This document shows positions 1-33,254 of a stretch of 64,000 nt of DNA, piece after piece. The notes under the pieces are model-generated. The model made no database searches. It was not told where the DNA came from and saw only the letters and a list, made by a program, of their open reading frames with translations. The position numbers and the translations under genes are program-made. The stretch lies in assembly GCA_963675155.1 (NCBI GenBank), contig OY775912.1:296058-360057 (forward strand). The letters run 5' to 3'. The stretch is from Anaerohalosphaeraceae bacterium. GTDB lineage: Bacteria; Planctomycetota; Phycisphaerae; Sedimentisphaerales; Anaerohalosphaeraceae. The stretch's first letter is position 1, and every line of letters starts with the position of its first letter.

Positions 1-523
1 TGCTTTTGCGGGGATACAGTGGCTGTCGGCAAATGTGAATACACGGGAGGTCATGCATGCGTTTGAGATGCTCCATGACATACCGGAGATTTTTGGCCTT
101 GCTGACCTCAGTGATACGGAGGTACCTAAGCACTTCTTCCTCGGTCATTAAATCCGGAACGGGCTGCCATTGCCCATTTGCATCTTGCATCATAGAGCCA
201 TTCATCGTCAAATTTTCATATGTTCTATTGTCATTCATTTTAATCATCTTTCAATTTTGTCGTGACATTATTTTGTTCAAACTACCGCCGAATAGCGATC
301 ATTGCAGGGCTATAATTATGCAGAATGGATGTGCGTTTTAGGGAGGGAAGAAAAGGTTAATCCAGGTCCGTTGTGTGCAACAGCACTTGCAACAAGCAAG
401 CACATTTTGCTTTCAGACCAATTACAGATGTGTTTCAGTCAGCGTCGTAAGTCTTTATAACACCGTTGTTAATCGTTTAATTACAAATACTTACAAAACC
501 CTCGGATCGCACTGAAAATCCGT

Positions 524-3500
524 GTGTCGGCGGTTCACGAGACGGTCGAACTTCGTACATCTGACGGTGTTGAAGTGGATCAGGTGGATTATCAGTTGGG
601 TTTTCCCTGGCCGACGGTCGGCGATTCGGTGCCGGAGACAACGACGGGCAACGGGTATTCGATTCAGCTTGTCAATCCGGGTTTTGATAATGATTTAGCG
701 GGGAGTTGGCGCAGTGCGTATCCTACGCCGGGAGCGGCAAATTCGTCGGTTTATGCGGCGAACCTGCCGCCCGCCATTCGTCAGGTTCAACACAGCCCCA
801 AGCAGCCGACTTCGACTGATACCGTGATCGTGACGGCCAAAGTTACGGATCCTGACGGCGTTGATTTCGTTACACTCCAATTTCAACTTGTTGAGCCGGG
901 CAGTTATATCCCGATTCGATTTCCAAGTGGATCGGAGAATTCCGCTTATAGCAGCGGATGGTCTTCTACTCAAATGTATGACAACGGATTGAATGGCGAT
1001 CAATACGCCGGGGATTCGGTTTATTCCGTTCAGGTGCCGGCTTTTGTACAGAATCATCGCAATTTGATTCGCTATCGAATTGTTGCGCAAGACACCGGTG
1101 GTCGGAGCCTTACGGTTCCTTATGCCGATGATCCGCAGCCGAATTTTGCGTATTTTATTTACGATGGCGCCCCTGCCTGGAGCGGCGCTTTCAAATCCGG
1201 TGATCCGGTTGTGAGCTATGGCACGGATGTTATGAATTCGCTGCTGATTTTCCAGGTCATTTCCAGAGCGACGGATATTCAAACGTGCCATCTGGGTCCG
1301 GAAACGGAAGAGTATCTATATGCCGCCACGGTCATTTGTGACGGTGAAGTCTATGACCATGTTGGTTACCGAATCAAAGGCGCCTATTCTTTTAATATCG
1401 AGGGCAAGAAGAAATGGAAATTCAACTTTAATCGAGGCCATCATTTGCAGCTTCGTGACAACTATGGAAAAAAATACAACCAGAAGTGGGATAAAATTAA
1501 CCTCTCAACAGGAACCTGTCCATATTGGCAGGAGTTCGGCTGGGATGGCGGCATTGACGGGATGGTTCTCAATGAAGCGGCGTCCTTTAAGCTCTTTAAC
1601 ATGTCCGGTGTGCCGGCGTGTAATACCACCTTTCTCCATATGCGCGTTGTTGATGATTCCTCTGAGACGGGAGCCAATCAATATGCCGGTGATTTCTGGG
1701 GGCTTTATATCGGCGTTGAACAAATGGATACACGTTACCTAAAAGAACATGATCTGCCGGACGGAAATCTTTATAAAATGGCAGGCAGTCCTTTGGGCGC
1801 CAGCCAGGGGCCGACAGAGCAGGTGATAACTGATCCAAGTGACGCATGGGCTCTTATCAATGGTATCGAATCGCATCCATCCTTGTCCTGGTGGCAAAGC
1901 AATGTCAATTTGCAGGGATATTACGCATATCGTACCGTGTCCACGGTGGTGAACAATTCAGATCCGCGTGTGAACTGGAATTGCTATTATTTCCATGATC
2001 CGTTGGCTGACAAATGGTCTATCCTGCCGTGGGATTTGGATCTGACCTATGAATATGCCACTCACTACACGGACAATGAGCATTTCAGGTATGTTGTTGA
2101 AGACTATGCCCAGGCTGGTCTTGACTATAAAAACAGAGCCAGGGAGCTACAGGATTTGTTATTCAACGGTGAACAAGCTGCGCAGGTGATCGATGAACTC
2201 GCATCAGTTGTCAGCCATCCGTCAACTACGGAAAAATTTACCGAAGCCAACCGTGCCCGCTGGGAAAATGACCCCTGGGTTGTCAACAAGGGACGAGATG
2301 ATTTATTTTATATCAGCAGTTGGTGGGATCCGGATCATGATTTTGCGACGGTTGTGCAATACATGAAAGATTTTCTGACACCGGAAGGGATTGGCAATCA
2401 GTTTGGCGGCGGAAAACTGTCGGTGGATATCGCGGACTCGGCCATTCCCGATACGCCGACGATTAGCTATATCGGTGAACCCAATTATCCGGAAAACGAT
2501 TTGCGATTCCAGACCAGCCCGTTCAGTGATTCAACCGGTTCATTTGCGGCGATGAAATGGCGGATTGCCGAAGTCGAATCTTATATACAGCCGGAAATTC
2601 CGCCTACTTCAGGAGGAACGGTCGCGCTGATCCCTGAAGATTCGCAGTGGCAGTATTTCAAGGGGCAAGCTGAGCCTTCAAGCCCGACAACCCAATGGCG
2701 GCAGATATCCTTCAATGACAGTGGTTGGCTGAGTGGTTATACGCCGATTGGTTATGGCGTGACAGTTAATACCGAACTGACGGATATGCGGCGTATTAAT
2801 GGGGCTCAGGACGGCTACTCCAGTGTGTATCTGCGAAAGGAGTTTCAGATTACCTCACCGTCGGATGTTGAAACGTTGCGGTTAACATTAGGGTATGACG
2901 ACGGCTTTAATGTCTGGATCAACGGGACGCATCTGGATTCGGTCAACGTTGCCCAGGAAAATATGGCCTATGACAGCACTGCTTTAGTGTATGAGGGCTC
3001 CGGCCAGGCTTCAACACAGCTGACATATGAGAATCCGGAAACATTTCTGGTTTCCGGTAAGAATGTGATAGCGGTTCAGTTATTAAACTACGAAATAACA
3101 AGTTCTGATTCGTTTTTTGATCCGGTTTTAGACGCTGATATTGTCAGTGACCCCGGCAGCGGCGGATCGTATGACTTTGTTTATACCGGTCAGCCCGGCA
3201 AATACGAGATTGACGCGGTCTGGGAAAGTGACGAACTGGCGACGTTTACCAGTGAGGTTCAGATTCCTGCTGACGGCATCAAGCCGGGCAGGACGTATCG
3301 TGTCCGTTGTAAAATGAAGGACGATACCGGCCGCTGGAGCCATTGGTCCGTTCCGATTCAATTTGTCGCTGGTGAGGCAATTGATGCCGACATCCTGACC
3401 TATTTGCGGGTTACCGAACTGATGTATAACAATGATGATGCCGATTTTATCGAACTGAAAAACATCAGCAGCACGGCGACACTGGATTTAAGCGATGTCT

Positions 3501-3892
3501 CGATCACAAGCGGGGTGCAATTCAGTTTTGCCGGCAGTGACGTCACCACCCTTGCTCCGGGCGCCTTTGTCTTGGTGGTAAAAGATCAGGGTGATTTTGA
3601 AACGCAATACGGAACCGGACACAATAGTAAAATTGCGGGTGTGTTTGTTGACAGTAGTTTGTCCAACGGCGGCGAAACCGTCAAATTGGAAGATACATGG
3701 AATGGGACAATTGTTGAATTTGAATACAATGATAGTCGCGGCTGGCCGCTGGCGGCCGACGGTCCCGGTCACTCGCTGGTTCCCTTACCCTTGACGATCG
3801 AAGAGCAACCTCTGGGGACCCTTGATTTTGGCGGAAACTGGCGACAAAGTACCTATATCGGCGGTTCCCCCGGCGCCGAGTGTCGTTATTAA
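524..3892 (+). CDS. CotH-domain / lamin-tail-domain (LTD) protein, N-terminal portion. It begins mid-LTD and is probably continued by 3822..4865 after a frameshift
   Basis: CotH-like block (FWGLYIGVEQMD...GNLYKMAG). LTD-like segment near residue 950 (ELMYNNDDADFIELKN). Ends GGSPGAECRY* exactly where the GSPGA-P-VVINE linker of LTD proteins is expected. GTG start, no signal peptide; the first ~70 aa look like the C-terminal half of an LTD. Confidence 0.55.
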   Translation: MSAVHETVELRTSDGVEVDQVDYQLGFPWPTVGDSVPETTTGNGYSIQLVNPGFDNDLAGSWRSAYPTPGAANSSVYAANLPPAIRQVQHSPKQPTSTDTVIVTAKVTDPDGVDFVTLQFQLVEPGSYIPIRFPSGSENSAYSSGWSSTQMYDNGLNGDQYAGDSVYSVQVPAFVQNHRNLIRYRIVAQDTGGRSLTVPYADDPQPNFAYFIYDGAPAWSGAFKSGDPVVSYGTDVMNSLLIFQVISRATDIQTCHLGPETEEYLYAATVICDGEVYDHVGYRIKGAYSFNIEGKKKWKFNFNRGHHLQLRDNYGKKYNQKWDKINLSTGTCPYWQEFGWDGGIDGMVLNEAASFKLFNMSGVPACNTTFLHMRVVDDSSETGANQYAGDFWGLYIGVEQMDTRYLKEHDLPDGNLYKMAGSPLGASQGPTEQVITDPSDAWALINGIESHPSLSWWQSNVNLQGYYAYRTVSTVVNNSDPRVNWNCYYFHDPLADKWSILPWDLDLTYEYATHYTDNEHFRYVVEDYAQAGLDYKNRARELQDLLFNGEQAAQVIDELASVVSHPSTTEKFTEANRARWENDPWVVNKGRDDLFYISSWWDPDHDFATVVQYMKDFLTPEGIGNQFGGGKLSVDIADSAIPDTPTISYIGEPNYPENDLRFQTSPFSDSTGSFAAMKWRIAEVESYIQPEIPPTSGGTVALIPEDSQWQYFKGQAEPSSPTTQWRQISFNDSGWLSGYTPIGYGVTVNTELTDMRRINGAQDGYSSVYLRKEFQITSPSDVETLRLTLGYDDGFNVWINGTHLDSVNVAQENMAYDSTALVYEGSGQASTQLTYENPETFLVSGKNVIAVQLLNYEITSSDSFFDPVLDADIVSDPGSGGSYDFVYTGQPGKYEIDAVWESDELATFTSEVQIPADGIKPGRTYRVRCKMKDDTGRWSHWSVPIQFVAGEAIDADILTYLRVTELMYNNDDADFIELKNISSTATLDLSDVSITSGVQFSFAGSDVTTLAPGAFVLVVKDQGDFETQYGTGHNSKIAGVFVDSSLSNGGETVKLEDTWNGTIVEFEYNDSRGWPLAADGPGHSLVPLPLTIEEQPLGTLDFGGNWRQSTYIGGSPGAECRY

Positions 3893-4865
3893 TGAATTGA
3901 TGGCGCATACCGATTTCAGTGATCCGGTCAATTATCCGGACTATGACAGTAATGACTGGATCGAGCTGTACAATGCCGGTGACTCCTCTGTTAGTCTCAG
4001 TGGTAACTGGTATCTCAGCGACGATCCGGACGACCTCAAGAAATGGGCTCTTCCGAGCCGTACGCTGAATGCAGGTGGCCGGATCAGCGTTGATGAGATT
4101 ACCGGGTTCCATAGCCCGATCACCAGCGGCTTCGGTCTGGACAAAGCCGGCGAACAGATTTACCTGTCGTATTTGCCGGGCACCAGTGCTGACCGTGTGG
4201 TCGATTGCATTCAGTTCAAAGGACAGGCAAACAGTATTTCCTTAAGCCGTTATCCGGACGGCGGCAGCGATTGGTTCTCCGCCTCACCGGGTACACAGAA
4301 CGCAGCCAACACGAATCTTGTTGCCCATGTCGTGATCAGCGAGATCATGTACCATCCCACCGAGGGAACAACGAATGAGGAATATATCGAACTGTACAAC
4401 CCGACCGGTTCAAGTGTCAATTTATGGACCGATACTGGTTCGTGGGCACTGGATGGCGGCGTTGATTATGAATTCCCGCCCAACACGACGCTGTCCAGCG
4501 GCGATCGTTTTTTGGTGGTGGATTTTGACCCGGCGACAGAATCCACTCGTTTAGATGCTTTCAAAATCAGTTACACTAATACAAATTTGACAGCGGGTGT
4601 TAATATCTTCGGTCCCTGGAGTGGTAATCTTTCCAATAATGGTGAGCGAGTTACATTGGAAAGGCCGCAGGATTCCGATGATCCACTGGATCCGACGTCG
4701 ATCTCCTGGATCATTGTCGATGAGTGCATCTATAACGACTACTGGCCGTGGCCGACGGGAGCCGACGGTACGGGCACGGCACTGTCTCGCCAGTCATCGT
4801 CAGCGGCCGCTTCCGGAAACGATGCTGCTAACTGGCTGGCGCAGACTCCGACACCGGGATGGTAA
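3822..4865 (+). CDS. tandem lamin-tail-domain (LTD) module; likely C-terminal continuation (other frame) of 524..3892
   Basis: Two LTD signatures: VVINELMAH...WIELYNAGDSSVSLSGNWYLSDD and VVISEIMYHP...YIELYNPTGSSVNLW. C-terminal ...TPTPGW resembles the ...APTPGL end of 10668..15434. Confidence 0.55.
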   Translation: MILAETGDKVPISAVPPAPSVVINELMAHTDFSDPVNYPDYDSNDWIELYNAGDSSVSLSGNWYLSDDPDDLKKWALPSRTLNAGGRISVDEITGFHSPITSGFGLDKAGEQIYLSYLPGTSADRVVDCIQFKGQANSISLSRYPDGGSDWFSASPGTQNAANTNLVAHVVISEIMYHPTEGTTNEEYIELYNPTGSSVNLWTDTGSWALDGGVDYEFPPNTTLSSGDRFLVVDFDPATESTRLDAFKISYTNTNLTAGVNIFGPWSGNLSNNGERVTLERPQDSDDPLDPTSISWIIVDECIYNDYWPWPTGADGTGTALSRQSSSAAASGNDAANWLAQTPTPGW

Positions 4866-5328
4866 CTAGAAGTTCTGCCGCGTGTTGCAAATACGGTCAC
4901 ATCCCCGGGAGCGGTCCATGAGACCGTTTGGCGAGGAGTATTTAACCGTTTACTCTGAAATGAGTTACGTTGAATTCAGCAGAGAAGCAGAATTTTTGAA
5001 ACCCCTGCTAACAAATGGGGAAATCATCTGTTGCTTTTCGAATGACGCTGTAAGTCCTTGTCTTGTCGTTATTAGTCATTTATTTTAAAGTACTTACGGA
5101 ATTCCTTGACAGGCTGGAACCCCGTATCTCGCGGTTCAGTTTTTTCTCTGACAAATCTTCCCATCGGTTTCGGCGGCCTCCTGAACATTTTGATCATCCA
5201 CCCTAGAAAAATCCGATAAAGAGAAAAATCGTGAATTGTTTTGCACAAACTCCATATAAAATGGCTTTTCTATTACAGACGAGGCAATAAGATACACGCA
5301 TCACATTTTTGAACGAGGAATATGTATT

Positions 5329-5853
5329 TTGAACGAGGAACAAAAAAAAGATATCAAGGGGCCAGAATTTGTAAGGTTGCTGACGGCAAACCAAAACAGA
5401 ATCTCTGCCTATATTTCAGGACTTGTTCCTAATTTCAACGATGCGGATGATATCCTTCAGGAAACGACTGCTATGATGTGGGCAAGAGCGGAAGATTTCA
5501 CTTCCGGGACGGATTTTGCTGCCTGGGGAGTTCGGATTGCATATTATAAAATTCTTGATTACCGGAAAAAGAAGCGTCGCGAGGGGAAATTACTCTTTTC
5601 GGATGAAATGTTTAGCCGGATTGCAGAAAAGGCTCCGACCCGTGTTGGCAAAACAAATACTTATATTGAGAAGCTTCGAGAGTGTACCGACAAACTTCAG
5701 TTGCGGGATAAAGATCTTCTCAATTTACGTTACTCAAATGGCCTGAGCGTTAAAAAAATCTCACTTCGCATCAATTACAGTATTCGAACAGTTTATTATG
5801 ATTTGTCTCGTATTCATGGATTATTGTTAAATTGTATAGAGCGTCCTGAATAA
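5329..5853 (+). CDS. ECF-type sigma-70 family RNA polymerase sigma factor
   Basis: Region 2 (DADDILQETTAMMWARAEDF...FAAWGVRIAYYKILDYRKKK) and region 4 HTH (LRYSNGLSVKKISLRINYSIRTVYYDLSRI). TTG start embedded in a 14-bp direct repeat. Stop overlaps the anti-sigma start (ATGA). Confidence 0.85.
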   Translation: MNEEQKKDIKGPEFVRLLTANQNRISAYISGLVPNFNDADDILQETTAMMWARAEDFTSGTDFAAWGVRIAYYKILDYRKKKRREGKLLFSDEMFSRIAEKAPTRVGKTNTYIEKLRECTDKLQLRDKDLLNLRYSNGLSVKKISLRINYSIRTVYYDLSRIHGLLLNCIERPE

Positions 5854-7541
5854 TGAAAAGTTCAATTAAAGAAAAAACTCAGTTTCGCTGTTTACTCATG
5901 AAGTCGCTGGATGGGACTATCTCCAAAGAAGAAACGGCCGTGTTTAATCAACTCGTTTTCGATTTTCCGGATTTAGAGGAGTATTACTTTAAATGTATGG
6001 ATTTACATTCAGCGCTGGATGGTATTCAAACGCTTGCTGAAATGAGTCATTTGGATGTTGAAGTTGAGCAAAAAAACGCGTTTCTGAGTGAGTTGGGTGA
6101 ATATGAAAAGATTGCCCCCACAATGGAAGTTCTCTCTGCTCCGGAAGACAAGGAATGGTTTCCGGTTAAGAAAATAAGCTATGCAGGGTCCGTCCGGAAG
6201 ATTAACAAGTTTTCATTGGTGACTGCCGTTCTTGGCACGGCTGCGTTTATTCTGATGATTCTGTATGTCCGTATCGTCCCTAATGCTCCCTATCAAGTGG
6301 CGACCATTTGTGATTCCATTGACGCGGAGTGGTCTGCGGGCTTGCCGATTAGCTCGGGAACACGCATTTCTTCTGATTCCCGGCCCATTCAATTGACCCG
6401 GGGAATTATGAAATTGCAGACAGATAGTCAGGTTGAGATTACCTTAGAAGCACCGACAGAATTTTATTTCTCGTCAGACTATAACATGGTAATGAATTAC
6501 GGGAAACTGTTCGCACACGTTTCCAGGCAGGGATTGGGTTTTACAGTTGCGACGCCGAATTCGAGAATTACCGATTTAGGGACTGAATTTGGAGTTCTGA
6601 GTCAAATCGACGGAACCACCGAAGTACACATGTTCAAAGGGAAGGCGAACGTATTTGGGGGCGGTAAAAATCAGACGAAAACATCTCAAATTTTAACCGC
6701 CGGTTCGGCGGTAAGTGTGAGTCGGCATAATTCGACGGTACAAGAAATCTCGCTGGATAAAGGGGTTGTCGTTCGAGATATCATTGGTTCGGAAAATAAG
6801 TTGGCCTGGAGGGGGCAGACAACCCTTCGTTTTGCCGACTTGTTACTAGGCGGCAACGGATTTGGAACAGCGTCTTTGCCGAATATTGAATACGATCCTG
6901 CCGCAGGTACGGTGGTTTCAAGTGGTGTGGCTGGATACAGAAGCGGTCCGGGAAAGAGGAAGGCAATTTCACAAAGTCCCTATCTTGACAGTATCTTTGT
7001 CCCCGGCAGCGAGGATGGCGATGTTATTGTTAGCTCGCTTGGCCATAAATTTGGTGAATGTCCTGAAACGAGTGGCTTGTATTTCGCAAATGTTTTATGT
7101 CAAAAAAACTTTCTATTTTTTGATCCGATCCAACAAGTTTTTAAGCAGTCCAGACAGCAATTTGAAGATTCGGGATTTCTTTACCTGCACAGCAACGTCG
7201 GCCTGACGATTGACCTGAATGCGGTTCGACGGGCTGTTCCCGGCCTTTCTGTCTCTTCGTTCTCTGCTTTTGCCGGGATTATCCGTACCTGGAATGATAC
7301 GCCGGATAGTTCAGAGGCAGATGTATGGATTTTAGTGGATGGCCAGGTTCGGTCTTCTCGGAAAGCTCTTCGAGCTGACGAGGGATATGATATTCATATT
7401 GATATCACTGATGAGGATCGTTTCTTAACCTTGATTGTTACGGATGGCGGAAAAACTTATTCGGAGGGCTTCCCCGCCAATCATTATGATACGTGTGGTT
7501 TTGCCGAACCGGTTTTTAATTTGGTATTGCCTTCAAAATAA
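5853..7541 (+). CDS. FecR-family transmembrane anti-sigma factor with a C-terminal beta-sandwich sensor domain
   Basis: Single TM helix (FSLVTAVLGTAAFILMILYV). FecR-like block (GFTVATPNSRITDLGTEFGVLS...EVHMFKGKANVF). C-terminal domain shared with 24733..26466 (DVWILVDGQV...RFLTLIVTDG). Translationally coupled to the sigma factor. Confidence 0.75.
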   Translation: MKSSIKEKTQFRCLLMKSLDGTISKEETAVFNQLVFDFPDLEEYYFKCMDLHSALDGIQTLAEMSHLDVEVEQKNAFLSELGEYEKIAPTMEVLSAPEDKEWFPVKKISYAGSVRKINKFSLVTAVLGTAAFILMILYVRIVPNAPYQVATICDSIDAEWSAGLPISSGTRISSDSRPIQLTRGIMKLQTDSQVEITLEAPTEFYFSSDYNMVMNYGKLFAHVSRQGLGFTVATPNSRITDLGTEFGVLSQIDGTTEVHMFKGKANVFGGGKNQTKTSQILTAGSAVSVSRHNSTVQEISLDKGVVVRDIIGSENKLAWRGQTTLRFADLLLGGNGFGTASLPNIEYDPAAGTVVSSGVAGYRSGPGKRKAISQSPYLDSIFVPGSEDGDVIVSSLGHKFGECPETSGLYFANVLCQKNFLFFDPIQQVFKQSRQQFEDSGFLYLHSNVGLTIDLNAVRRAVPGLSVSSFSAFAGIIRTWNDTPDSSEADVWILVDGQVRSSRKALRADEGYDIHIDITDEDRFLTLIVTDGGKTYSEGFPANHYDTCGFAEPVFNLVLPSK

Positions 7542-10667: not shown

Positions 10668-13600
10668 ATGAGAATGTCGTGTTTCAGAGTAGCGTCCCTT
10701 GTTGTTTTGGTTTTCAGTCTTTTAACTTATGCGGCATCTCCTGTCGGCGACCTTGACGGGAATTACTATGTGGACTTTGAAGACCTTGTCCTTTTTGCGC
10801 AGCAATGGATGCAGTACCCTGATTGCTATGGTGCTCCGGGTTGTGGGGATGTTGAAGGCGATGATGGCGTGAATCTCGAAGATTTCGCACTCATTGCATT
10901 TAATTGGCAAATACGTGGCGAGATCGCACTGGTGATTAACGAAGTGATGGCTTCCAATGACAGCACGTTGGAAGATCCGGATGAACCCGGAGAATACCCG
11001 GACTGGATCGAAATTTATAATTATGGGGATGATACGGTATCTTTGTCGGGGATGTATCTGCGGGACGACAACAATACATGGCAGATCCCGGCAGGCATTT
11101 CCATAGAACCCGATGAGTATGTTTTGTTCTGGGCTGATGATGATGACGAGCAGGGCGATTATCATACCACTCTGAAATTGGGCAAATCTGATGATGAAGT
11201 GACGCTTGTGTCGTATGATGGAGAAACCATTGTTGATTCGATGAGCTATTCAGATCAGGTAACAGATGTTTCTTACGGACGATATCCGGATGCTTCGGAT
11301 GACTGGTATTTGATGGACGCACCTTCCCCCGAATTGACGAACGCGATGGGAATGGCCGGTAAGGTCTATTTTTCAAGCCTGGGCGGAACTTTTACATCAA
11401 GCTTTTCCCTGACCCTGTCAACAACGTCACCGACGGCACAGATTCGTTATACTACTGATGGCTCGATTCCATCTGCTTCTTCATTTCCGTATACTGCGCC
11501 GATAACGATTTCAAATTCTCAGACCCGACGCATCAGGGCCAGGGCCTATGATGCGTTGCTGGCGCCCGGTCCGGTGCATACGGAGGTCTATGTTCCCCTG
11601 GCGGCGGATATACAGACCTTCACTTCGAATCTTCCAATTGTCATTCTGGACACTCATGGAAGCGGCATCAGTAACACAACATACGGCGAAATATCTTCGA
11701 TCTTTGTCGATGTCGACAAAGACACCGGTGTATCCAGCATGACTGACTTCTCCGATTTTGCAGGAAGAGGTGCAGCAAAGATTCGCGGGGAAAGTTCCCA
11801 GGCATGGCCCAAGAAACAGTACTCCCTGGAACTCTGGGATGAGAACGACATGGACGCGAAAGCTTCATTACTGGGAATGCCGTCGGGATCGGATTGGATT
11901 TTGAATGCGCCATACGGCGACAAAACACTTTTGCGGAATGTGTTGGCATTTAAGTGGTCAAATGATATTGAAAACGGTTTTGCTGCTCCGGGGACCAAAT
12001 TGGTCGAAGTCTTCCTGAACGATGACGGCGGAAACTGTTCATATGCAGACTACAACGGAATTTATGTTTTGATGGAAAAAATCAAAGTGTCAGACAATAG
12101 AGTCGATATCGGTTCTCTCGATTCCGGTGACATTGCCGAACCGGATGTAACCGGCGGATATATTTTAAGGGTCGACAAGAATAATGGGCAGGAAACGTTT
12201 ACAACAAATGCAAACATGGTCGGATCAATTCAGTATTACGATCCGGACGAGACCGCTCTTTCCGCCACACAAAAAAGCTGGATACAAAACTGGCTTAATA
12301 CCTTTGAAACCCATCTTAACGCAAGTGATTTCAATGATCCCCTGGCAGGTTATGCACACTATATCGATGTCGAAAACTTCATCGAATATGATATGATACT
12401 GGAGTTATTTAAAAATGCAGATGGTTTTAAGCTTAGCACTTATTTTCATAAAGAGCGAAATGGGAAGCTGAGGTTTGGACCTCAATGGGACTTTAATTTC
12501 AGTTCCGGAAATACAACAAATCCAGATTGGTGGTATCCCTCGTATTTTTCCAAGGCGTCTGCAACTGAAGAAGGGTGGTTCTGTGATCAACCCGATTTTA
12601 AAGTGTACAGCTGGCATCAACGGTTATTGCAGGATCCCGATTATATGATTCGTTATGCAGATAAATGGTTTGAACACAGAGAAGATAAACTCTCCGATGC
12701 ACAAATAACCGCAGATATCGATACTTACTATTCGCTGCTGACAACCAATCATGCATTTGCGGGTGGCGCAGACAATGCGGCAGACAGAAACTTTGCCAAA
12801 TGGAACATACTTAACAATCAGGAGTGGTGTAATTACTACTTCGGATACAACGCCCAATTGAGCGTTTATGATCCCTACACCGGCCAAACAACGCAAATAC
12901 CTCCAGAAGAACGCGAACAAGCCAACATGCCGCACACCTATCATATGGAAACCGAATGGCTGAAGAACTGGTTTAACGGCGAAGGAACTCCTACAGGGAG
13001 TGAATGGTATCAAACTGATTATTCTGACAGGATCGGGAAACTTGACGCGTTATGGCAATCCGACCGGAATATTTGTATGCCGCCGACGCTGAATATTAAC
13101 GGTACGCCCATGAATTTGGGAGGCCGGGTCGATCTGGGTGACGGTCTGACAATGAGTTCTGCCTGTGCGGGGACCATTTATTACACGACTGACGGTACGG
13201 ACCCGAGAACCTGGACCACTGTGTCGAATCCGGGCTTCGCTGCAACACTGGTGGCGGAAGACGCGGCTAAAGCGGTCTTGATCCCCACCGAAACGGTCAG
13301 TAACGATTGGAAGGGAGGCAATGAACCCTTTGATGATTCAACCTGGACAGATTTCGATTTTATTGCCGGTAAACCCGGAAGTGTTGGATATGAAAATTCG
13401 AGCGGTTATCAGGAGTTTATCAGCTATGACGTTAAAAATGACCTGCTTGGAAATAACAACACGCAAAGCTGTCTGATCAGAATCCCGTTTTTTGTTGATT
13501 CCGCCCAGTTGGCGGAGATGACTTATCTCACCCTTCGTGTAAGGCACGATGACGCATTTGTGGCTTACATTAACGGTATCGAAGTCTATCGAAGTTCACT

Positions 13601-15434
13601 TGTTCCCAATCCGCTTGAGTGGAGTTCATCGGCGGATTCCTATTTGGATTCTGATGCGACAAATCTCGTGAATTATAATATCAGTTCCTATCTCTACCTG
13701 CTTCAGGCTGGCGGTAATAATATTCTGGCAATTCACGGTCTCAACTCTGATTCTGGAAGTTCAGATTTTCTCATCTCTGCACAGCTTGAGGCTGGCGCCG
13801 TCAGCAGCGGTGGTCATACGCCTGGCGGCGAAATTTCACCCAGTGCTGTTGTATATGCCGATCCGATTACTTTGATGAAGAGTGAAAAGATCAAGGCTCG
13901 TTTAAAGAATGGATCCGATTGGGGGGCTTTGAACGAGGCGTGCTATTCGGTTGGTCCAGTAGGTGACAACCTGCGGATTACCGAGATCATGTATCACCCG
14001 GCCGATCCCAACCAGGAGTTCGTTGAGGTCCGGAACATTGGTGCGTCGACCATCAATCTGGCATGGGTTAAATTTACAGAGGGTATCGATTTCACCTTCC
14101 CCGATCTATCACTTGGAGCAGGTCAATATGCTGTTGTGGTTCGTAATCAGGCCGTCTTTGAAGCGTTGCACGGCACGGGAATAACCATTGCCGGACAGTT
14201 CAGCGGCGCACTGGATAACGGGGGTGAAGAAATCGTTCTGAAGGACGCATTTGGGGCTAAAATCCTCGATTTCGATTACAATGATAATTGGTATCCGATT
14301 ACGGATGGGGCTGGTTTCTCATTAAATATCATCAACTCGTCCAATCCGGATCCGAACAGTTGGGACGATAAAGATGCCTGGCAGGCAAGCAGTGTACTCA
14401 ACGGAAGTCCGGGAGCACACAATCCCGTCAATGTTGTTCCAAACGGCGCGATTGTCATTAATGAGATACTGACACATTCCAATGACTATCCGAATGACTG
14501 GATTGAGTTACATAATACGACCGGATCAGAAATCAGCATTGGAGGTTGGTTCCTAAGCGATAATTCAGATAATTTTAAAAAATATCAAATTGGTTCCGGG
14601 ACGTCCATTCCCGCATACGGTTATATCGTCTTTACCCAGGACGATAACTTTGGATCTTCGTCAAGCGATCCGGGCAGACTTGTCGGTTTTGGATTGAGTG
14701 AACTGGGAGAAGAGGTTTATCTTTCCAGCGGCTCTGGTGGAAATCTCGCCGGAGGTTACAGTGTTTGGCAGGATTTCGAAGCCGCTGAATGGGATATTTC
14801 CTTTGGAAGACATGTCAAGAGTACGGCGGAAAACAACGATGTTGATTTTGTTTTAATGCAAGCCATGACTTATGAAAACTCCAACTCCGGGCCGCTTATC
14901 CCCGATGTCATCATCAGCGAAATTATGTATAATCCATCGACGACTCATGACGAACTGGGCGAATATATCGAGTTGAAGAACAGAACCACTTCGACGGTTG
15001 ACCTCTTTGACCCGGCCAATCCGTCTAACACCTGGAAGTTTACAAAGGGAATTAATTATACATTTCCGCCAGGTGTCTCGATCTCTGCAGGAGAGCGGAT
15101 TCTTGTGGTTCGAACCGATCCGGAAATCTTCCGAGTGATCCACCCAACTATACCCGCAGGTGTGCAAGTTTTCGGTCCTTTTATCAATTCGAAGCTTGAA
15201 AATGATGGTGAAAAAATTGAACTTTCCAGACCGAGCAATCCGGAGCCCGGCGGTTTTGTTCCCTATATTCGTGTTGAGCAAGTCAATTACAGTGATGGTA
15301 CGCACCCGATTGGCAATGACCCGTGGCCGACAACCGCCGACGGTGAGGGCAATGCTTTGAGCCGAACTTCGGAAACCGGCTACTCCAATGATGTCAGTCA
15401 TTGGACGGCCGCCGCGCCGACTCCGGGACTGTGA
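10668..15434 (+). CDS. giant secreted CotH-domain protein with N-terminal dockerin-like repeats, CHB_HEX_C-like (YTTDGS) domains and >=4 lamin-tail domains
   Basis: Signal peptide from internal Met (MRMSCFRVASLVVLVFSLLTYAA). EF-hand-like DLDGNYYVDFEDLVLFAQQWMQ and GDVEGDDGVNLEDFALIAFNW. LTDs (LVINEVMASND...WIEIYNYGDDTVSLSGMYLRDD; RITEIMYHPADPNQEFVEVRNIG; IVINEILTHSND...WIELHNTTGSEISIGGWFLSDN; VIISEIMYNPST...YIELKNRTTSTVDLFD). IRYTTDGSIPS and GTIYYTTDGTDP motifs. CotH-like core (GIYVLMEKIKV...GGYILRVDK). Paralog of 524..4865. Confidence 0.7.
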   Translation: MRMSCFRVASLVVLVFSLLTYAASPVGDLDGNYYVDFEDLVLFAQQWMQYPDCYGAPGCGDVEGDDGVNLEDFALIAFNWQIRGEIALVINEVMASNDSTLEDPDEPGEYPDWIEIYNYGDDTVSLSGMYLRDDNNTWQIPAGISIEPDEYVLFWADDDDEQGDYHTTLKLGKSDDEVTLVSYDGETIVDSMSYSDQVTDVSYGRYPDASDDWYLMDAPSPELTNAMGMAGKVYFSSLGGTFTSSFSLTLSTTSPTAQIRYTTDGSIPSASSFPYTAPITISNSQTRRIRARAYDALLAPGPVHTEVYVPLAADIQTFTSNLPIVILDTHGSGISNTTYGEISSIFVDVDKDTGVSSMTDFSDFAGRGAAKIRGESSQAWPKKQYSLELWDENDMDAKASLLGMPSGSDWILNAPYGDKTLLRNVLAFKWSNDIENGFAAPGTKLVEVFLNDDGGNCSYADYNGIYVLMEKIKVSDNRVDIGSLDSGDIAEPDVTGGYILRVDKNNGQETFTTNANMVGSIQYYDPDETALSATQKSWIQNWLNTFETHLNASDFNDPLAGYAHYIDVENFIEYDMILELFKNADGFKLSTYFHKERNGKLRFGPQWDFNFSSGNTTNPDWWYPSYFSKASATEEGWFCDQPDFKVYSWHQRLLQDPDYMIRYADKWFEHREDKLSDAQITADIDTYYSLLTTNHAFAGGADNAADRNFAKWNILNNQEWCNYYFGYNAQLSVYDPYTGQTTQIPPEEREQANMPHTYHMETEWLKNWFNGEGTPTGSEWYQTDYSDRIGKLDALWQSDRNICMPPTLNINGTPMNLGGRVDLGDGLTMSSACAGTIYYTTDGTDPRTWTTVSNPGFAATLVAEDAAKAVLIPTETVSNDWKGGNEPFDDSTWTDFDFIAGKPGSVGYENSSGYQEFISYDVKNDLLGNNNTQSCLIRIPFFVDSAQLAEMTYLTLRVRHDDAFVAYINGIEVYRSSLVPNPLEWSSSADSYLDSDATNLVNYNISSYLYLLQAGGNNILAIHGLNSDSGSSDFLISAQLEAGAVSSGGHTPGGEISPSAVVYADPITLMKSEKIKARLKNGSDWGALNEACYSVGPVGDNLRITEIMYHPADPNQEFVEVRNIGASTINLAWVKFTEGIDFTFPDLSLGAGQYAVVVRNQAVFEALHGTGITIAGQFSGALDNGGEEIVLKDAFGAKILDFDYNDNWYPITDGAGFSLNIINSSNPDPNSWDDKDAWQASSVLNGSPGAHNPVNVVPNGAIVINEILTHSNDYPNDWIELHNTTGSEISIGGWFLSDNSDNFKKYQIGSGTSIPAYGYIVFTQDDNFGSSSSDPGRLVGFGLSELGEEVYLSSGSGGNLAGGYSVWQDFEAAEWDISFGRHVKSTAENNDVDFVLMQAMTYENSNSGPLIPDVIISEIMYNPSTTHDELGEYIELKNRTTSTVDLFDPANPSNTWKFTKGINYTFPPGVSISAGERILVVRTDPEIFRVIHPTIPAGVQVFGPFINSKLENDGEKIELSRPSNPEPGGFVPYIRVEQVNYSDGTHPIGNDPWPTTADGEGNALSRTSETGYSNDVSHWTAAAPTPGL

Positions 15435-24194: not shown

Positions 24195-24746
24195 ATGGGT
24201 CATATAAATAATTCAACCAGCACCGAAGAACGTTCGAAAAGGTTCATCTCTTTGTTGATGCCTGTCCAGCGAAAAGTGTATGCTTATGTCGCTTATCACG
24301 TTCCCGATAAGAATAACTCCGATGACCTTTTTCAAGAAGTCGTCGCAACCCTATTAACCAAGTTTGACGATTACGAAGAAGGTACGAGCTTCCTGAAGTG
24401 GGCCATCACTGTTGCCAAATATAAGATTCTTTCTTTTCACCGAGATAACAAACGCATGAAGATTGTGTTTGATGAAGCCGACATGGACCAAATTTATATC
24501 GAAGCGCAGGAAAAGATTGAGTCGCTGGAGGAAGAGTCAAAGGCATTAACAGGATGCTTAGAGAAATTATCCGATAAGCAGCGAAGCTTGGTGAATTATC
24601 GATACGGCTATGAAATGACCTACCGTCAAATTGCAAAAAAACTCAATATTTCAATGCAATCGACATACAGAGCAATTTATCGTATCCATGGATCCCTCCT
24701 GAAATGTATTCATCTGTCATTGAAGTTCAGAGGTGTCAATGAATAA
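24195..24746 (+). CDS. ECF-type sigma-70 family sigma factor (paralog of 5329..5853)
   Basis: Region 2 (DDLFQEVVATLLTKFDDYEE...LKWAITVAKYKILSFHRDNKRMK). Region 4 (LVNYRYGYEMTYRQIAKKLNISMQSTYRAIYRIHGSL). RBS gaggagg. Overlaps the downstream anti-sigma. Confidence 0.85.
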   Translation: MGHINNSTSTEERSKRFISLLMPVQRKVYAYVAYHVPDKNNSDDLFQEVVATLLTKFDDYEEGTSFLKWAITVAKYKILSFHRDNKRMKIVFDEADMDQIYIEAQEKIESLEEESKALTGCLEKLSDKQRSLVNYRYGYEMTYRQIAKKLNISMQSTYRAIYRIHGSLLKCIHLSLKFRGVNE

Positions 24747-26466
24747 TAACGACTCATTTTTAGACAATTATCCCGAGTTCTTCCCTCTCATTGCAGACAG
24801 AGAGATGACCGATGAAGAGTTTGAAGTGGTTAAAGCTTTACTGAAAACCAATCAAGCGGCCCGAAACGCTTATTTTGACATGATTAACCTTGAAGTCTTG
24901 TTACGGGACTCAAAAGAGCTGGGGGAAGGATTTGAGGGAAACCCCTGTATTGACATGGATTTTTGGCGACTTCTGGCTCACGAAGAAGAAACAAAACCAG
25001 CCATTGAAATCCCCCCCCAACAGCCGCCCCGGGAGTTGATACAAAAGGTTATTTGGCCTCAGAAAAATAAATATAAAGTGAGTAAATTCAGCATTTTTGG
25101 AATTGCGATGAATGTTGCGGCGATCCTTTTTGTCGTTCTGTTTTTGAAGTTTGCTCCCCAGCGATTTCACGCCTTTGAGGTTGCAACTCTGGTTGATCAA
25201 TTGAATGTCAAATGGGCTCATCCCGATAAAATCCGGGGAAAAGGAAGCCGTTTATGGACCGATGAAGGGCTGTTGGATTTGAAACAGGGAATGGTTAAAA
25301 TCCGATATGACGACGGCGTCGACGTTGTGATTGAAGGACCGGCATTATTTGAAATTAACCAATCGCAGGTTTATCTTGAATACGGACGTTTATACGGCTG
25401 TGTTTCGAAGTCGGGCTTGGGATTTAGAGTGGAAACGCCCACGTCACAGTTTTTGGATCATGGAACTGAATTCGGCGTATTGGCTAATATTGACGGCTCC
25501 TCGGAATTGCATGTCATGGAAGGTAAAGTTGAATTATTTACCGGTTCCAGAGGCCAATTCAAAAGCTGTCAGATGGTGCCTGAAAAAAAGGCAATAAAGT
25601 ATAATGCGACGATCGATCAAGTCAACAAGATCCCTATTCAAAAAGAGGTCTTCGCTCGGTCTTTCAATTCCGAAAGCAAGATGGTCTGGCGAGGCAAGAT
25701 GCATCTCAATCTGGCCGATATCATCGGTGGCGGCAATGGTTTTGGAGATGGGGCAATCGATGCAGGAATCGATGCGACCACCGGAAAAACGCTGGACCGT
25801 CTTTTGAATTATAATCCATTTGAAGGTTCTGCGGGATATAAGGCGGTCAGCAGCAGTCCGTATATTGACGGTGTTTTTATTCCGGGTGCCGGTGACGGTC
25901 CAATCCCCATTACGTCGGAAGGATCGTATACGGCGATATTCCCGCATACAAGCGGAGCATTGTGGGGCTATATATTCAATGGGGCATTTCATCAGGGAAC
26001 TCCTGCAACCCAAACTCCACTGGAATTAGCGGGTGTTGTTTTTGGGACGCCGGATAATCCTGCGATCACCATCCATTCGAATCAGGGGGTTACGTTCGAC
26101 CTTTCTGAAATACGAAAGAGTCTGCCGGCGTTGTCGATAACAGGCTTTCGGTCGCTTGCAGGTATTTCACAAACAGTGCAGGATGTTTTGGAGAAAAAAG
26201 AAGGTGGGGCTACTGATATTTTGCCGGAATCTCAAAAGGGTTTTAACGCTGACAGGTCAAACGTTGAATTTTGGGTTTTTCTGGACGGAAAACAGGCGTT
26301 TTGCCAGAAAATATCCAGTGCTGACGAGGCTGCTGAACTGGAGATACCCATCGCAGATAATGTTCGATTTCTGACATTGGCGGTGACAGAATCCGATGAC
26401 TCCGTTTCGTATGACTGGGCGTTATTCGGCCGACCGGAGTTGATTTTGGAGTTGGCCCGGCAGTAG
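24733..26466 (+). CDS. FecR-family transmembrane anti-sigma factor (paralog of 5853..7541)
   Basis: TM helix FSIFGIAMNVAAILFVVLFL. FecR block (GFRVETPTSQFLDHGTEFGVLANIDGSSELHVMEGKVELF). Conserved C-terminal sensor domain (VEFWVFLDGKQ...VRFLTLAVTESDD). Confidence 0.75.
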   Translation: MSMNNNDSFLDNYPEFFPLIADREMTDEEFEVVKALLKTNQAARNAYFDMINLEVLLRDSKELGEGFEGNPCIDMDFWRLLAHEEETKPAIEIPPQQPPRELIQKVIWPQKNKYKVSKFSIFGIAMNVAAILFVVLFLKFAPQRFHAFEVATLVDQLNVKWAHPDKIRGKGSRLWTDEGLLDLKQGMVKIRYDDGVDVVIEGPALFEINQSQVYLEYGRLYGCVSKSGLGFRVETPTSQFLDHGTEFGVLANIDGSSELHVMEGKVELFTGSRGQFKSCQMVPEKKAIKYNATIDQVNKIPIQKEVFARSFNSESKMVWRGKMHLNLADIIGGGNGFGDGAIDAGIDATTGKTLDRLLNYNPFEGSAGYKAVSSSPYIDGVFIPGAGDGPIPITSEGSYTAIFPHTSGALWGYIFNGAFHQGTPATQTPLELAGVVFGTPDNPAITIHSNQGVTFDLSEIRKSLPALSITGFRSLAGISQTVQDVLEKKEGGATDILPESQKGFNADRSNVEFWVFLDGKQAFCQKISSADEAAELEIPIADNVRFLTLAVTESDDSVSYDWALFGRPELILELARQ

Positions 26467-32618: not shown

Positions 32619-32692
32619 TGCTCCGTGGCCCAACTGGAAGAGGCAGCGGGTTTTGAACCCGTTCGTTGCAGGTTCGATTCCTGCCGGAGCTG
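32619..32692 (+). tRNA. tRNA-Gln (anticodon TTG)
   Basis: Manual fold: acceptor TGCTCCG/CGGAGCT (U1.U72 mismatch). Anticodon arm GCGGG-TTTTGAA-CCCGT. T-arm GCAGG-TTCGATT-CCTGC. Confidence 0.65.
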
Positions 32693-32697
32693 AATGA

Positions 32698-32772
32698 CTG
32701 GATGTAGGGCAGCCTGGGTAGCCTACTCGCCTTGGAAGCAAGACGTCGTTGGTTCGAATCCAACCATCCAGA
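32698..32772 (+). tRNA. tRNA-Pro (anticodon TGG)
   Basis: Acceptor CTGGATG/CATCCAG perfect. D-arm GGGCAGCCTGGGTAGCCT. Anticodon loop CTTGGAA. T-arm GTTGG-TTCGAAT-CCAAC. Confidence 0.7.
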
Positions 32773-32774
32773 CT

Positions 32775-32847
32775 GTGACCGTAGCTTAATTGGTAAAGCA
32801 CCAGATTGTGATTCTGGGGAGTACGGGTTCGAGTCCCGCCGGTCACC
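32775..32847 (+). tRNA. tRNA-His (anticodon GTG); no encoded G-1
   Basis: Acceptor GTGACCG/CGGTCAC, discriminator C. Anticodon arm CCAGA-TTGTGAT-TCTGG. T-arm ACGGG-TTCGAGT-CCCGC. The nucleotide at -1 is T. Confidence 0.65.
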
Positions 32848-32867
32848 CTTTGAAAAGAGAATGTTGA

Positions 32868-32938
32868 GCGTTGACGGTATAATGGCAACATACGGGCTTG
32901 CCAAGTCTGTGATGGGAGTTCGAATCTCCCTCGACGCA
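32868..32938 (+). tRNA. tRNA-Gly (anticodon GCC)
   Basis: Acceptor GCGTTGA/TCGACGC. Anticodon loop TTGCCAA; the anticodon stem has two G-U pairs. T-arm GGGAG-TTCGAAT-CTCCC. Confidence 0.6.
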
Positions 32939-32941
32939 ATC

Positions 32942-33012
32942 GGCCTCGTCGTCTAGTGGCAGGACACCAGATTTTCGATCTGTGAACGTGAGTTTGATTC
33001 TCACCGAGGCTA
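32942..33012 (+). tRNA. tRNA-Glu (anticodon TTC)
   Basis: D-arm TCGTCTAGTGGCAGGAC typical of tRNA-Glu. Anticodon loop TTTTCGA. T-arm GTGAG-TTTGATT-CTCAC. Acceptor GGCCTCG/CGAGGCT (G1.U72). Confidence 0.6.
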
Positions 33013-33018
33013 TTAATC

Positions 33019-33092
33019 GGCTCTGTAGCCCAATTGGCAGAGGCGGCGGACTTAGAATCCGCTCAGTGTAGGTTCGACTCCTACCGGGGCTA
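33019..33092 (+). tRNA. atypical tRNA: Gln-like body with anticodon TAG (would read CUA Leu codons) and a short class-I variable loop
   Basis: D-arm GCCCAATTGGCAGAGGC and T-arm GTAGG-TTCGACT-CCTAC closely resemble the tRNA-Gln at 32619. Anticodon arm GCGGA-CTTAGAA-TCCGC. 5-nt variable loop, unlike class-II tRNA-Leu. Acceptor has three G-U pairs. Confidence 0.45.
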
Positions 33093-33097
33093 GTAAA

Positions 33098-33169
33098 GGA
33101 ACGGTAGCTGAGATGGTTTAGCGAAAGCCTGAAAAGGTTCAGACGTTGGTTCGAACCCATCCCGTTCCA
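33098..33169 (+). tRNA. tRNA-Phe-like (anticodon GAA) with weak anticodon stem and one T-stem mismatch; possibly a pseudo-tRNA
   Basis: Acceptor GGAACGG/CCGTTCC perfect. Loop CTGAAAA. The anticodon stem AAAGC/GGTTC has only 3 Watson-Crick pairs. Confidence 0.45.
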
Positions 33170-33254
33170 CTTAATGGAAATATAATTTGAATAACCTAAT
33201 TAAGATGGATACAATCTCATAGACAACAATAAAGGAGTTTAAAGGAATACAGCA

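What the first reader, a model, noticed from the sequence alone, without database searches (positions are those of the whole stretch)
3860..3895. Frameshift in a C5 homopolymer splits a CotH-LTD giant gene into two ORFs
Frame A reads GGSPGAECRY*. The overlapping frame B reads AVPPAPSVVINELMAH. Deleting one C from the cccccc run at ~3867-3872 gives GGSPAPSVVINE, which is precisely the GSP(G)A-P-VVINE linker seen before every LTD in the paralog 10668..15434. So 524..3892 and 3822..4865 were one ~1450-aa gene. It is either a sequencing or assembly error in a homopolymer, or an authentic pseudogene or phase-variable slip site in a surface protein.
Basis: seen in the sequence. Interest (0 to 1): 0.5.

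Follow-up and report, generated by a model that had tools for sequence, protein, structure and literature searches.

The report
Broken CotH-LTD gene: a pseudogene
The two overlapping reading frames are pieces of one large secreted-protein gene that is dead: a 20-base deletion, not a slip in the run of five Cs, broke the reading frame, and the gene's front end has been replaced by the end of a mobile element. This is ordinary gene decay.

Summary
Frame A reads GGSPGAECRY* and frame B reads AVPPAPSVVINELMAH at 3860-3908, and both ORFs are pieces of one CotH-LTD gene. The proposed cause does not hold. The C run has five Cs (3867-3871), and the two closest intact relatives (1647 and 1639 aa, 87% and 85% identical) carry the same run in frame, GGCGGTTCCCCCGG = GGSPG. 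Relative to the closest relative, the window lacks 20 contiguous bases (3n+2) inside the 9-codon linker between GGSPG and VVINE, just 3' of the run. In 53 homologs this linker is 8-10 residues long; removing one C would leave about 2.

A second lesion exists. Homology to the orthologs starts abruptly at base 538 (codon ~205), so the signal peptide, the dockerin-like module and most of the first LTD are missing. Bases 512-537 are an exact partial copy of tRNA-Phe (positions 32-57). Bases 1-537 match DNA that in other contigs lies beside a tyrosine integrase.

dN/dS on the window branch is 0.14, so both lesions are recent. Longer homopolymers (C8, A8, G6) lie in intact ORFs, so a homopolymer error is unlikely. 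Verdict: authentic, recently inactivated pseudogene. Phase variation and programmed frameshifting are not supported. Interest is low.

The parts
1..240 (-). 5' part of a small gene (about 89 aa, no Pfam family). It runs off the left end of the window.
   Evidence: Translation. It is 71% identical to P0125 (89 aa), and the family consists of 62-105 aa hypothetical proteins. In five metagenome contigs P0125 lies about 400 nt from a divergent tyrosine integrase, with Toprim/DUF5906 primase, Dam, resolvase and Fic genes nearby.
241..511 (.). Non-coding spacer of the element-like DNA.
   Evidence: Window 1-537 aligns at 69% nt identity to L081 7732-8238 and L085 1566-2072. Within the 65 nt next to the breakpoint, 57 of 60 aligned bases match, with a 5-base mismatch block at 503-507. 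The same conserved motif (..ATTAATCGTTTA-TT-ACAA-TACTTACAAA..) precedes partial tRNA-Phe copies in L122, L141, L145 and L164.
512..537 (+). Partial tRNA-Phe(GAA) copy, from the anticodon loop to the T-loop (tRNA positions 32-57). It is an att-type element end, cut off after TTCA.
   Evidence: It is 26/26 identical to tRNA-Phe genes. The 26-mer has at least 120 hits in metagenomes. Of 81 occurrences read, 58 lie inside ARAGORN tRNA-Phe genes and 23 are partial copies; four of those (L116, L143, L165 x2) also break to unrelated DNA right after TTCA. ARAGORN finds no tRNA here.
538..3877 (+). CotH-LTD gene remnant, frame A. It corresponds to about codons 205-1316 of the intact 1647-aa relative: the end of LTD1, the CotH domain, the central domain, LTD2 and GGSPG-A. 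The GTG at 524 is a fortuitous start.
   Evidence: blastn homology to L080 and L001 begins at 538. Pfam finds CotH and LTD. There are no internal stops, and the sequence is 87% aa identical to P0121.
3867..3871 (+). C5 run (TCC CCC = Ser-Pro of GGSPG). It is the ancestral, in-frame state and not the lesion.
   Evidence: The identical GGCGGTTCCCCCGG is in frame in L080 and L001.
3875..3881 (+). Scar of the 20-nt deletion: GCC GA|GT. The first 5 nt and the last 2 nt of a 27-nt linker remain.
   Evidence: L080 reads GGA ACC GA[T GAT CCG ACA CCG GTG ACG A]GT GTC GTT. The window lacks the bracketed 20 nt, and CGA occurs at both edges. Linker length is 9 aa in 48, 10 in 4 and 8 in 1 of 53 homologs.
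3890..3892 (+). Premature stop (TAA) in frame A, five codons after the deletion.
3882..4865 (+). CotH-LTD gene remnant, frame B: LTD3 and LTD4 up to the natural stop. The TTG at 3822 is a fortuitous ORF opening.
   Evidence: Pfam finds LTD x2. It is colinear with P0121 and P0001 to the C-terminus, and nucleotide homology to L080 continues to 5030.

Best explanation
Window 538..4865 is an authentic, recently inactivated pseudogene. It derives from a large (about 1640 aa) secreted CotH-LTD protein gene of a Sedimentisphaerales/Anaerohalosphaeraceae-type planctomycete.

Two independent lesions are shown.
1. A 20-nt deletion (3n+2) removed most of the 9-codon acidic linker (consensus A-D-D-P-x-P-x-x-[S/D]) between the GGSPG end of LTD2 and the VVINE start of LTD3. 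This shifts the frame and creates a stop five codons later. The C5 run just upstream is untouched.
2. The gene is cut at about codon 205. From base 537 leftwards the DNA is the end of a tRNA-Phe-associated integrative-element-like region: a partial tRNA-Phe copy ending in the T-loop, a conserved spacer, and a small element gene. What remains therefore has no promoter-proximal part, no signal peptide, no dockerin-like module and no first LTD.

Inferred, not shown:
- The deletion arose by slippage or microhomology-mediated joining at a CGA...CGA repeat.
- The 5' cut arose from insertion of the element into the gene, or from a deletion starting at its att end.
- Neither fragment is functional.

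Because dN/dS on the window branch is as low as in intact relatives, both events are recent.
For: One gene:
- Intact relatives P0121 (1647 aa) and P0001 (1639 aa) cover both ORFs colinearly.
- In a 1430-codon three-way alignment the window is 87% and 85% aa identical to them, with no further stops.

Deletion, not a C-run slip:
- The DNA alignment has a single 20-nt gap. The C5 run is identical and in frame in L080 and L001.
- In 53 homologs the linker is 8-10 aa and GSP[G/A] is kept in 52.

5' cut:
- blastn homology to L080 and L001 starts at 538.
- Homology of window 1-537 to the P0125 loci ends at 537. The terminal 30 nt are 100% identical.
- Bases 512-537 equal tRNA-Phe positions 32-57.
- An integrase, primase and resolvase lie next to the homologous region in other contigs.

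Not an error-prone assembly:
- There are 314 homopolymers of 5 or more bases, and 268 lie in long ORFs. These include C8, four A8 and three G6 runs, all in intact ORFs.
- Other overlapping ORF pairs are distinct genes.
- No repeat is shared across the 537/538 joint that could cause a chimeric join.

Recency: branch dN/dS is 0.136 for the window, against 0.182 and 0.142 for the two relatives.
Against: - No reads or second assembly of this genome could be examined. The 4.9-Mb source contig is not in the contig look-up. The exact deletion junction is absent from JGI metagenomes. An assembly artefact therefore cannot be formally excluded.
- The unrelaxed dN/dS is also what one would see if the lesions were artefacts.
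- The nearest intact relative is only 87.7% identical in DNA. The exact size and edges of the deletion (20 nt, CGA microhomology) are therefore inferred from a cousin, not from the direct ancestor.
- Whether the 5' part of the gene survives at the other end of the element is unknown. The search meant to test this was uninformative.
Confidence: 0.8

Rival explanations
1. The gene had a short GGSP-APS-VVINE linker, and one extra C in the homopolymer splits it. The extra C would be either a sequencing or assembly error or a true 1-nt insertion.
For: Removing one C formally restores a continuous frame. The lesion lies within 10 nt of a C5 run.
Against: - The C5 run is identical and in frame in both closest relatives.
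- The repair destroys the Gly of GSPG (GSP[G/A] is kept in 52/53 homologs). It leaves a linker of about 2 aa against 8-10 aa in 53/53.
- It needs two events (a 21-nt deletion plus a 1-nt insertion) instead of one.
- Much longer homopolymers in the window are error-free.
Confidence: 0.04
2. Assembly artefact. The 20-nt gap, the 537/538 joint, or both are consensus or chimera errors, and the real genome carries an intact gene.
For: Reads are not available. dN/dS is not elevated. The source is a single 4.9-Mb contig, which suggests long-read assembly.
Against: - A clean 20-nt deletion with colinear flanks is not a typical consensus error.
- The rest of the window has no broken genes: long ORFs cover 92.6% of it.
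- The 537/538 joint has no shared repeat to mislead an assembler. It falls exactly at the TTCA position where other partial tRNA-Phe copies also end.
- Two independent artefacts in one gene, with none elsewhere in 64 kb, is improbable.
Confidence: 0.1
3. Regulated expression: phase variation at the C tract, or programmed +1 ribosomal frameshifting at C CCC GGC, rejoins the two frames.
For: Only the proximity of a C5 run and the short (71-nt) overlap of the two frames.
Against: - The tract is too short for known contingency loci, and its length is invariant in relatives.
- 59 homologs read straight through, so no conserved recoding site exists.
- The product would still lack a signal peptide and the N-terminal 204 aa.
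Confidence: 0.02
4. The fragments are retained as functional, separately translated proteins. For example, translation could reinitiate at TTG 3897 or ATG 3900, 5-8 nt after the stop.
For: dN/dS is low on the window branch. A public annotation of the 4.9-Mb contig calls a CDS from ATG 3900 (P0122, 321 aa).
Against: - Neither fragment has a signal peptide, whereas all intact homologs have an N-terminal hydrophobic leader and a dockerin-like module.
- ATG 3900 removes the conserved VVINE strand of the LTD.
- The low dN/dS is explained equally well by recent inactivation.
Confidence: 0.04

Closest known systems
CotH (PF08757) + lamin-tail-domain (PF00932) multidomain secreted proteins of Planctomycetota, Verrucomicrobiota and others
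   Same: The domain order is the same as in intact homologs: (LTD)-CotH-central domain-LTD-LTD-LTD. Identity is 87% to P0121, 85% to P0001 and 48-60% to more than 100 others.
   Different: The window copy lacks the signal peptide, the dockerin-like module and most of LTD1. It also carries a frameshifting 20-nt deletion. It is a remnant, not a working member.
Bacterial pseudogenes formed by small deletions at short direct repeats (slippage or microhomology-mediated)
   Same: The indel is not a multiple of 3 relative to intact orthologs. A premature stop follows. A 3-nt CGA repeat sits at both edges in the closest relative.
   Different: There is no sign yet of relaxed selection or further decay, so the lesion is very recent. 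The microhomology is inferred from a relative that is 88% identical.
tRNA-gene-targeting integrative elements with tyrosine integrases, which leave att sites carrying a partial tRNA copy
   Same: A partial tRNA-Phe copy (positions 32-57) sits at the boundary. The conserved spacer and small gene are homologous to DNA that lies beside an integrase and primase in other contigs. From general knowledge, crossovers in the T-loop or anticodon loop are typical of such integrases.
   Different: Here the copy abuts a protein-coding gene, not the rest of a tRNA. The integrase and the other end of the element are outside the window. No similarity between the T-loop core and the CotH target site was found.
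Homopolymer contingency loci (phase-variable surface protein genes, e.g. poly-G/C tracts in Neisseria, Haemophilus, Campylobacter)
   Same: A C run lies near a frameshift in a putative surface or secreted protein gene.
   Different: The run is only 5 nt, it has the same length in relatives, and it is not where the frame is lost.

Membership tests
CotH-LTD secreted protein family | CotH domain present | tested here: met
   PF08757, E=1e-17, residues 284-561 of ORF 524..3892.
CotH-LTD secreted protein family | Lamin tail domains present | tested here: met
   PF00932 in both ORFs (E=7e-10 and 1.3e-23).
CotH-LTD secreted protein family | N-terminal leader, dockerin-like module and first LTD, as in intact homologs | tested here: not met
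   Homology starts at about codon 205 (base 538). No upstream frame encodes the missing part.
CotH-LTD secreted protein family | Single uninterrupted reading frame | tested here: not met
   Frameshift at 3877/3878 and stop at 3890.
Pseudogene (decayed copy of a gene that is intact in relatives) | Intact orthologs exist and are colinear across the break | tested here: met
   P0121, P0001 and 57 further homologs.
Pseudogene (decayed copy of a gene that is intact in relatives) | Frame-disrupting indel relative to orthologs, followed by a premature stop | tested here: met
   20-nt gap. TAA five codons later.
Pseudogene (decayed copy of a gene that is intact in relatives) | Relaxed selection (raised dN/dS, further lesions) | tested here: not met
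   Branch dN/dS is 0.136 against 0.182 and 0.142. There are no other stops in 1430 codons. This is compatible only with recent inactivation.
Pseudogene (decayed copy of a gene that is intact in relatives) | Lesion present in the organism rather than only in the assembly | not testable with these tools
   No reads are available. The source genome is absent from the contig look-up. The junction is not in JGI metagenomes.
Homopolymer phase-variation (contingency) locus | Hypermutable tract (usually 7-8 nt or longer) | tested here: not met
   C5 only, at 3867-3871.
Homopolymer phase-variation (contingency) locus | Tract length differs between relatives or states | tested here: not met
   The same C5 is in frame in L080 and L001.
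Homopolymer phase-variation (contingency) locus | A +/-1 change in the tract restores the family-typical protein | tested here: not met
   The result is GGSP-APS-VVINE, a linker of about 2 aa. All 53 homologs have 8-10 aa.
Programmed ribosomal frameshift | Frameshift conserved in orthologs | tested here: not met
   All 59 aligned homologs are contiguous.
tRNA-targeting integrative element (att junction) | Partial tRNA copy at the element boundary | tested here: met
   Bases 512-537 are 26/26 identical to tRNA-Phe positions 32-57.
tRNA-targeting integrative element (att junction) | Tyrosine integrase and a second att copy in the same element | not testable with these tools
   These lie left of the window start. 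In homologous contigs an integrase lies beside the partial tRNA copy.
tRNA-targeting integrative element (att junction) | Target is the cognate tRNA gene | tested here: not met
   The copy is joined to codon ~205 of the CotH-LTD gene, and ARAGORN finds no tRNA there.

The most novel reading that the evidence does not exclude
Both lesions could be footprints of the same tRNA-Phe-specific integrase. The LTD-end coding sequence ATCGGCGGTTCC (codons IGGS) mimics the tRNA T-arm GTCGGCGGTTCA: 10/10 identical at 527-536 and 3858-3867. It lies 10 nt upstream of the 20-nt deletion. LTD-linker sequences might therefore act as pseudo-att sites, and the deletion could be a scar of abortive or imprecise recombination. 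On this reading, LTD-rich surface-protein genes would be preferred collateral targets of these elements.
Probability: 0.04. Interest if true: 0.4.

Novelty: already known. Interest (0 to 1): 0.12.

Why it matters
It matters mainly for annotation. The locus should be annotated as one pseudogene (538..4865), not as two CDSs (1122 aa and 321 aa) as the public protein sets currently hold.

It should not be 'polished' by removing a C. That edit would create a protein with a non-native linker.

The case also shows that a frameshift next to a homopolymer is not necessarily in the homopolymer. Comparison with the nearest intact relatives moves the lesion a few bases and changes the conclusion from 'possible sequencing error or phase variation' to 'real deletion'.

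Biologically, it records recent loss of one of several CotH-LTD paralogs, next to an integrative-element end.

Tried and rejected
- Looking up the source contig to read upstream of the window. Neither P0002 nor a neighbouring protein is on record. The genome is not among the GTDB representatives scanned.
- Searching JGI metagenomes for the exact deletion junction gave no hit. This is uninformative, because no protein more than 90% identical comes from JGI.
- Searching for a surviving N-terminal fragment with residues 1-201 of P0121. The search returned only two distant hits and missed even P0001, so the negative result means nothing.
- Pfam, PHROGs and NCBIfam on the small upstream ORF. The only hit was a PHROG 'HTH DNA binding' match at E=0.1, which is not usable.
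- Rfam on 240-700 gave nothing. On L085 it gave only sub-threshold chance hits driven by hairpins.
- Promoter and terminator scans of 1-5400 were at chance level.
- The antisense ORFs 3681..4112 and 695..1291 have no family matches and are treated as spurious.
- Other candidate split genes (44458/45458 and 54904/57027) are distinct genes.
- I looked for similarity between the T-loop core and the CotH target site around codon 204. None was convincing, so conservative secondary-site integration is not claimed.
- A literature search on CotH, LTD and Planctomycetes gave nothing specific.
Full report
**1. Observation**

- Frame A is GGC GGT TCC CCC GGC GCC GAG TGT CGT TAT TAA = GGSPGAECRY*.
- Frame B, one base to the right, reads AVPPAPSVVINELMAH.
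- ORF 524..3892 (1122 aa) and ORF 3822..4865 (347 aa) overlap by 71 nt.
- Pfam finds CotH plus one LTD in the first ORF and two LTDs in the second.

Three details need correcting.
- The run has five Cs (3867-3871), not six.
- In the paralog 10668..15434 only one of the four LTDs is preceded by a GSPG-type linker. That paralog is only 29% identical.
- The ancestral gene was about 1640 aa, not about 1450.

**2. One gene, intact in relatives**

A search with the C-deleted fusion found an intact 1639-aa protein, P0001 (BLASTP 83% identity over 100% of the query). It also found P0002, which is ORF A itself from a public 4.90-Mb contig, and more than 100 homologs of 48-60% identity. These come from Sedimentisphaerales, Anaerohalosphaeraceae and other Planctomycetota and Verrucomicrobiota.

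The 90% cluster of P0002 holds a second member, P0121. It is an intact 1647-aa protein from a Logan assembly and is the closest relative.

In a 1430-codon three-way alignment the window is 87.1% aa and 87.7% nt identical to P0121, and 84.6% aa identical to P0001. There are no further stops. I retrieved the DNA of both relatives as L080 and L001.

**3. Where the frame is lost**

Both relatives carry GGCGGTTCCCCCGG, the same five Cs, in frame as G-G-S-P-G. The C5 run is therefore the ancestral in-frame state.

The three-way DNA alignment shows a single gap:
- L080: GGA ACC GA[T GAT CCG ACA CCG GTG ACG A]GT GTC GTT ATT AAT GAA
- Window: GGC GCC GA|GT GTC GTT ATT AAT GAA

Twenty contiguous bases (3n+2) are missing. 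The trinucleotide CGA sits at both edges, so the gap can be placed up to 3 nt further left (3874/3875 to 3877/3878).

Among 59 aligned homologs, 53 could be parsed at this junction. Of these, 52 have GSP[G/A]. The linker to [VI][VI]INE is 9 aa in 48, 10 in 4 and 8 in 1. The consensus is A-D-D-P-x-P-x-x-[D/S].

The window keeps GCC GA, which is Ala plus two bases of the Asp/Glu codon. It also keeps the last two bases of the Ser codon. This is exactly what a single 20-nt deletion inside the 27-nt linker leaves.

It would lose the Gly, shrink the linker to about 2 residues, and require two mutational events. I therefore place the lesion at 3877/3878, not in the homopolymer.

**4. Error or real**

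A clean 20-nt gap is not a homopolymer error.

The window contains 314 homopolymers of 5 or more bases, 268 of them inside long ORFs. These include a C8, four A8, one T8 and three G6 runs, all in uninterrupted ORFs. The only other overlapping ORF pairs are distinct genes: a LacI regulator with a glucoamylase-family gene, and a glucoamylase-PA14 gene with a prepilin-type protein.

The assembly therefore does not look indel-prone. I could not see reads. The source genome is not in the contig look-up, and the junction 33-mer is absent from JGI metagenomes. An artefact thus keeps a residual probability of about 0.1.

**5.

ORF A begins with the last strands of an LTD (…ETVELRTSDGVEVDQVDYQLGFPWP…). 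In P0121, P0001, P0003 and P0004 this stretch is preceded by about 200 residues: a hydrophobic leader, a dockerin-like DLSGDC…DDL module, and the first two thirds of LTD1.

Nucleotide homology to L080 (86.7%) and L001 (83.1%) starts abruptly at base 538. No frame upstream encodes the missing part. The GTG at 524 is therefore a fortuitous start, and the product would have no signal peptide.

**6. What lies upstream**

Bases 1-240 on the minus strand encode the start of a small protein. It is 71% identical to P0125 (89 aa, no Pfam family). In five metagenome contigs P0125 lies about 400 nt from a divergent tyrosine integrase, with Toprim/DUF5906 primase, Dam, resolvase and Fic genes around it.

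Window 1-537 aligns to those contigs at 69% identity, and the alignment ends exactly at 537. The last 30 nt are 100% identical.

Bases 512-537 (CTGAAAATCCGTGTGTCGGCGGTTCA) are identical to positions 32-57 of a widespread tRNA-Phe(GAA). The 26-mer has at least 120 metagenome hits. Of 81 occurrences I read, 58 lie inside ARAGORN-called tRNA-Phe genes and 23 are partial copies.
- Most partial copies continue to the tRNA 3' end.
- Several follow the same conserved spacer as the window.
- Four (L116, L143, L165 twice) break to unrelated DNA right after TTCA, as the window does.

In L085 the partial copy is followed by a terminator hairpin and the integrase gene.

The 5' end of the CotH-LTD remnant therefore abuts an att-type end of a tRNA-Phe-associated integrative element. 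The window cannot show whether the element inserted into the gene or a deletion ran from its att end into the gene. The search meant to detect a surviving 5' fragment was uninformative.

The joint has no shared repeat that could mislead an assembler.

**7. Age**

Nei-Gojobori branch estimates give dN/dS of 0.136 for the window branch, 0.182 for L080 and 0.142 for L001. The window copy evolved under purifying selection for essentially the whole branch, so both lesions are recent.

This is also why no further stops or indels are seen. The same pattern would be expected if the lesions were artefacts, which is the main evidence against my reading.

**8. Rejected readings**

- Phase variation: the tract is short, invariant in relatives, and not the site of the lesion.
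- Programmed frameshifting: none of 59 homologs has a recoding site, and the product would still lack its N-terminus.
- Functional split proteins: neither fragment has a leader. The ATG at 3900 that a public annotation uses (P0122) removes the conserved VVINE strand.
- Opposite strand: antisense ORFs over the region have no family matches. Promoter and terminator scans are at chance level.

**9. Verdict**

It is one gene, and most likely a true pseudogene. The cause, however, is a 20-nt linker deletion next to the C5 run, not a slip within it. A second, larger lesion lies at base 538, next to mobile-element DNA.

This is ordinary gene decay. Its value is for annotation: call one pseudogene at 538..4865, and do not 'polish' out a C.

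One unexplained coincidence remains. The 10-mer TCGGCGGTTC occurs both in the T-arm of the partial tRNA copy (527-536) and 10 nt upstream of the deletion (3858-3867). My rough post hoc estimate of the chance of a match that close is about 1e-3. An integrase-related origin of both lesions is not excluded, but I found no mechanistic support for it.

Noticed in passing
window 527-536 and 3858-3867: The 10-mer TCGGCGGTTC occurs in the T-arm of the partial tRNA-Phe copy, just 5' of the 537/538 joint. It occurs again in the IGGS codons, 10 nt 5' of the 20-nt deletion (family D5). A rough post hoc estimate of the chance of such proximity is about 1e-3. It may be coincidence or a pseudo-att site.
   Followed up: partly
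window 25011-25018: A C8 homopolymer lies inside an intact 577-aa FecR/NPCBM anti-sigma-like ORF (24733..26466). It is a longer tract than the C5 of the finding and is still in frame.
   Followed up: partly
window 5307-5320 and 5327-5340: A perfect 14-nt direct repeat, TTTTGAACGAGGAA, with 20-nt spacing lies at the start of the ECF sigma-factor ORF 5329..5853. It could be a regulatory repeat or a small duplication.
   Followed up: no
window 5329-7541 and 24195-26466: There are two ECF sigma / FecR-like anti-sigma gene pairs. They sit among glycoside-hydrolase, CotH-LTD, PA14 and glucoamylase-family genes, in a layout resembling a polysaccharide-utilisation region.
   Followed up: no
window 32619-33170: A cluster of seven tRNA genes (Gln, Pro, His, Gly, Glu, Leu, Phe). 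Its tRNA-Phe differs in sequence from the partial tRNA-Phe copy at 512-537.
   Followed up: partly
L165 1697-1722 and 10784-10809; L116; L143: Other metagenome contigs carry partial tRNA-Phe copies that also break to unrelated DNA immediately after TTCA. L165 has two such copies in direct orientation 9 kb apart, which may flank an element.
   Followed up: no
proteins P0010, P0050, P0053: These homologs match only about 38% of the query, but at 65-77% identity, which is much higher than the 48-60% typical of full-length hits. This suggests mosaic or recombinant CotH-LTD paralogs.
   Followed up: no
L001 1-10000 versus window: The intact ortholog in L001 lies directly downstream of a 1677-aa GH2 gene and upstream of NeuB and glycosyltransferase genes. 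None of these flank the window copy. The window's downstream flank (to 5030) matches L080 only. Synteny around this gene is not conserved.
   Followed up: partly
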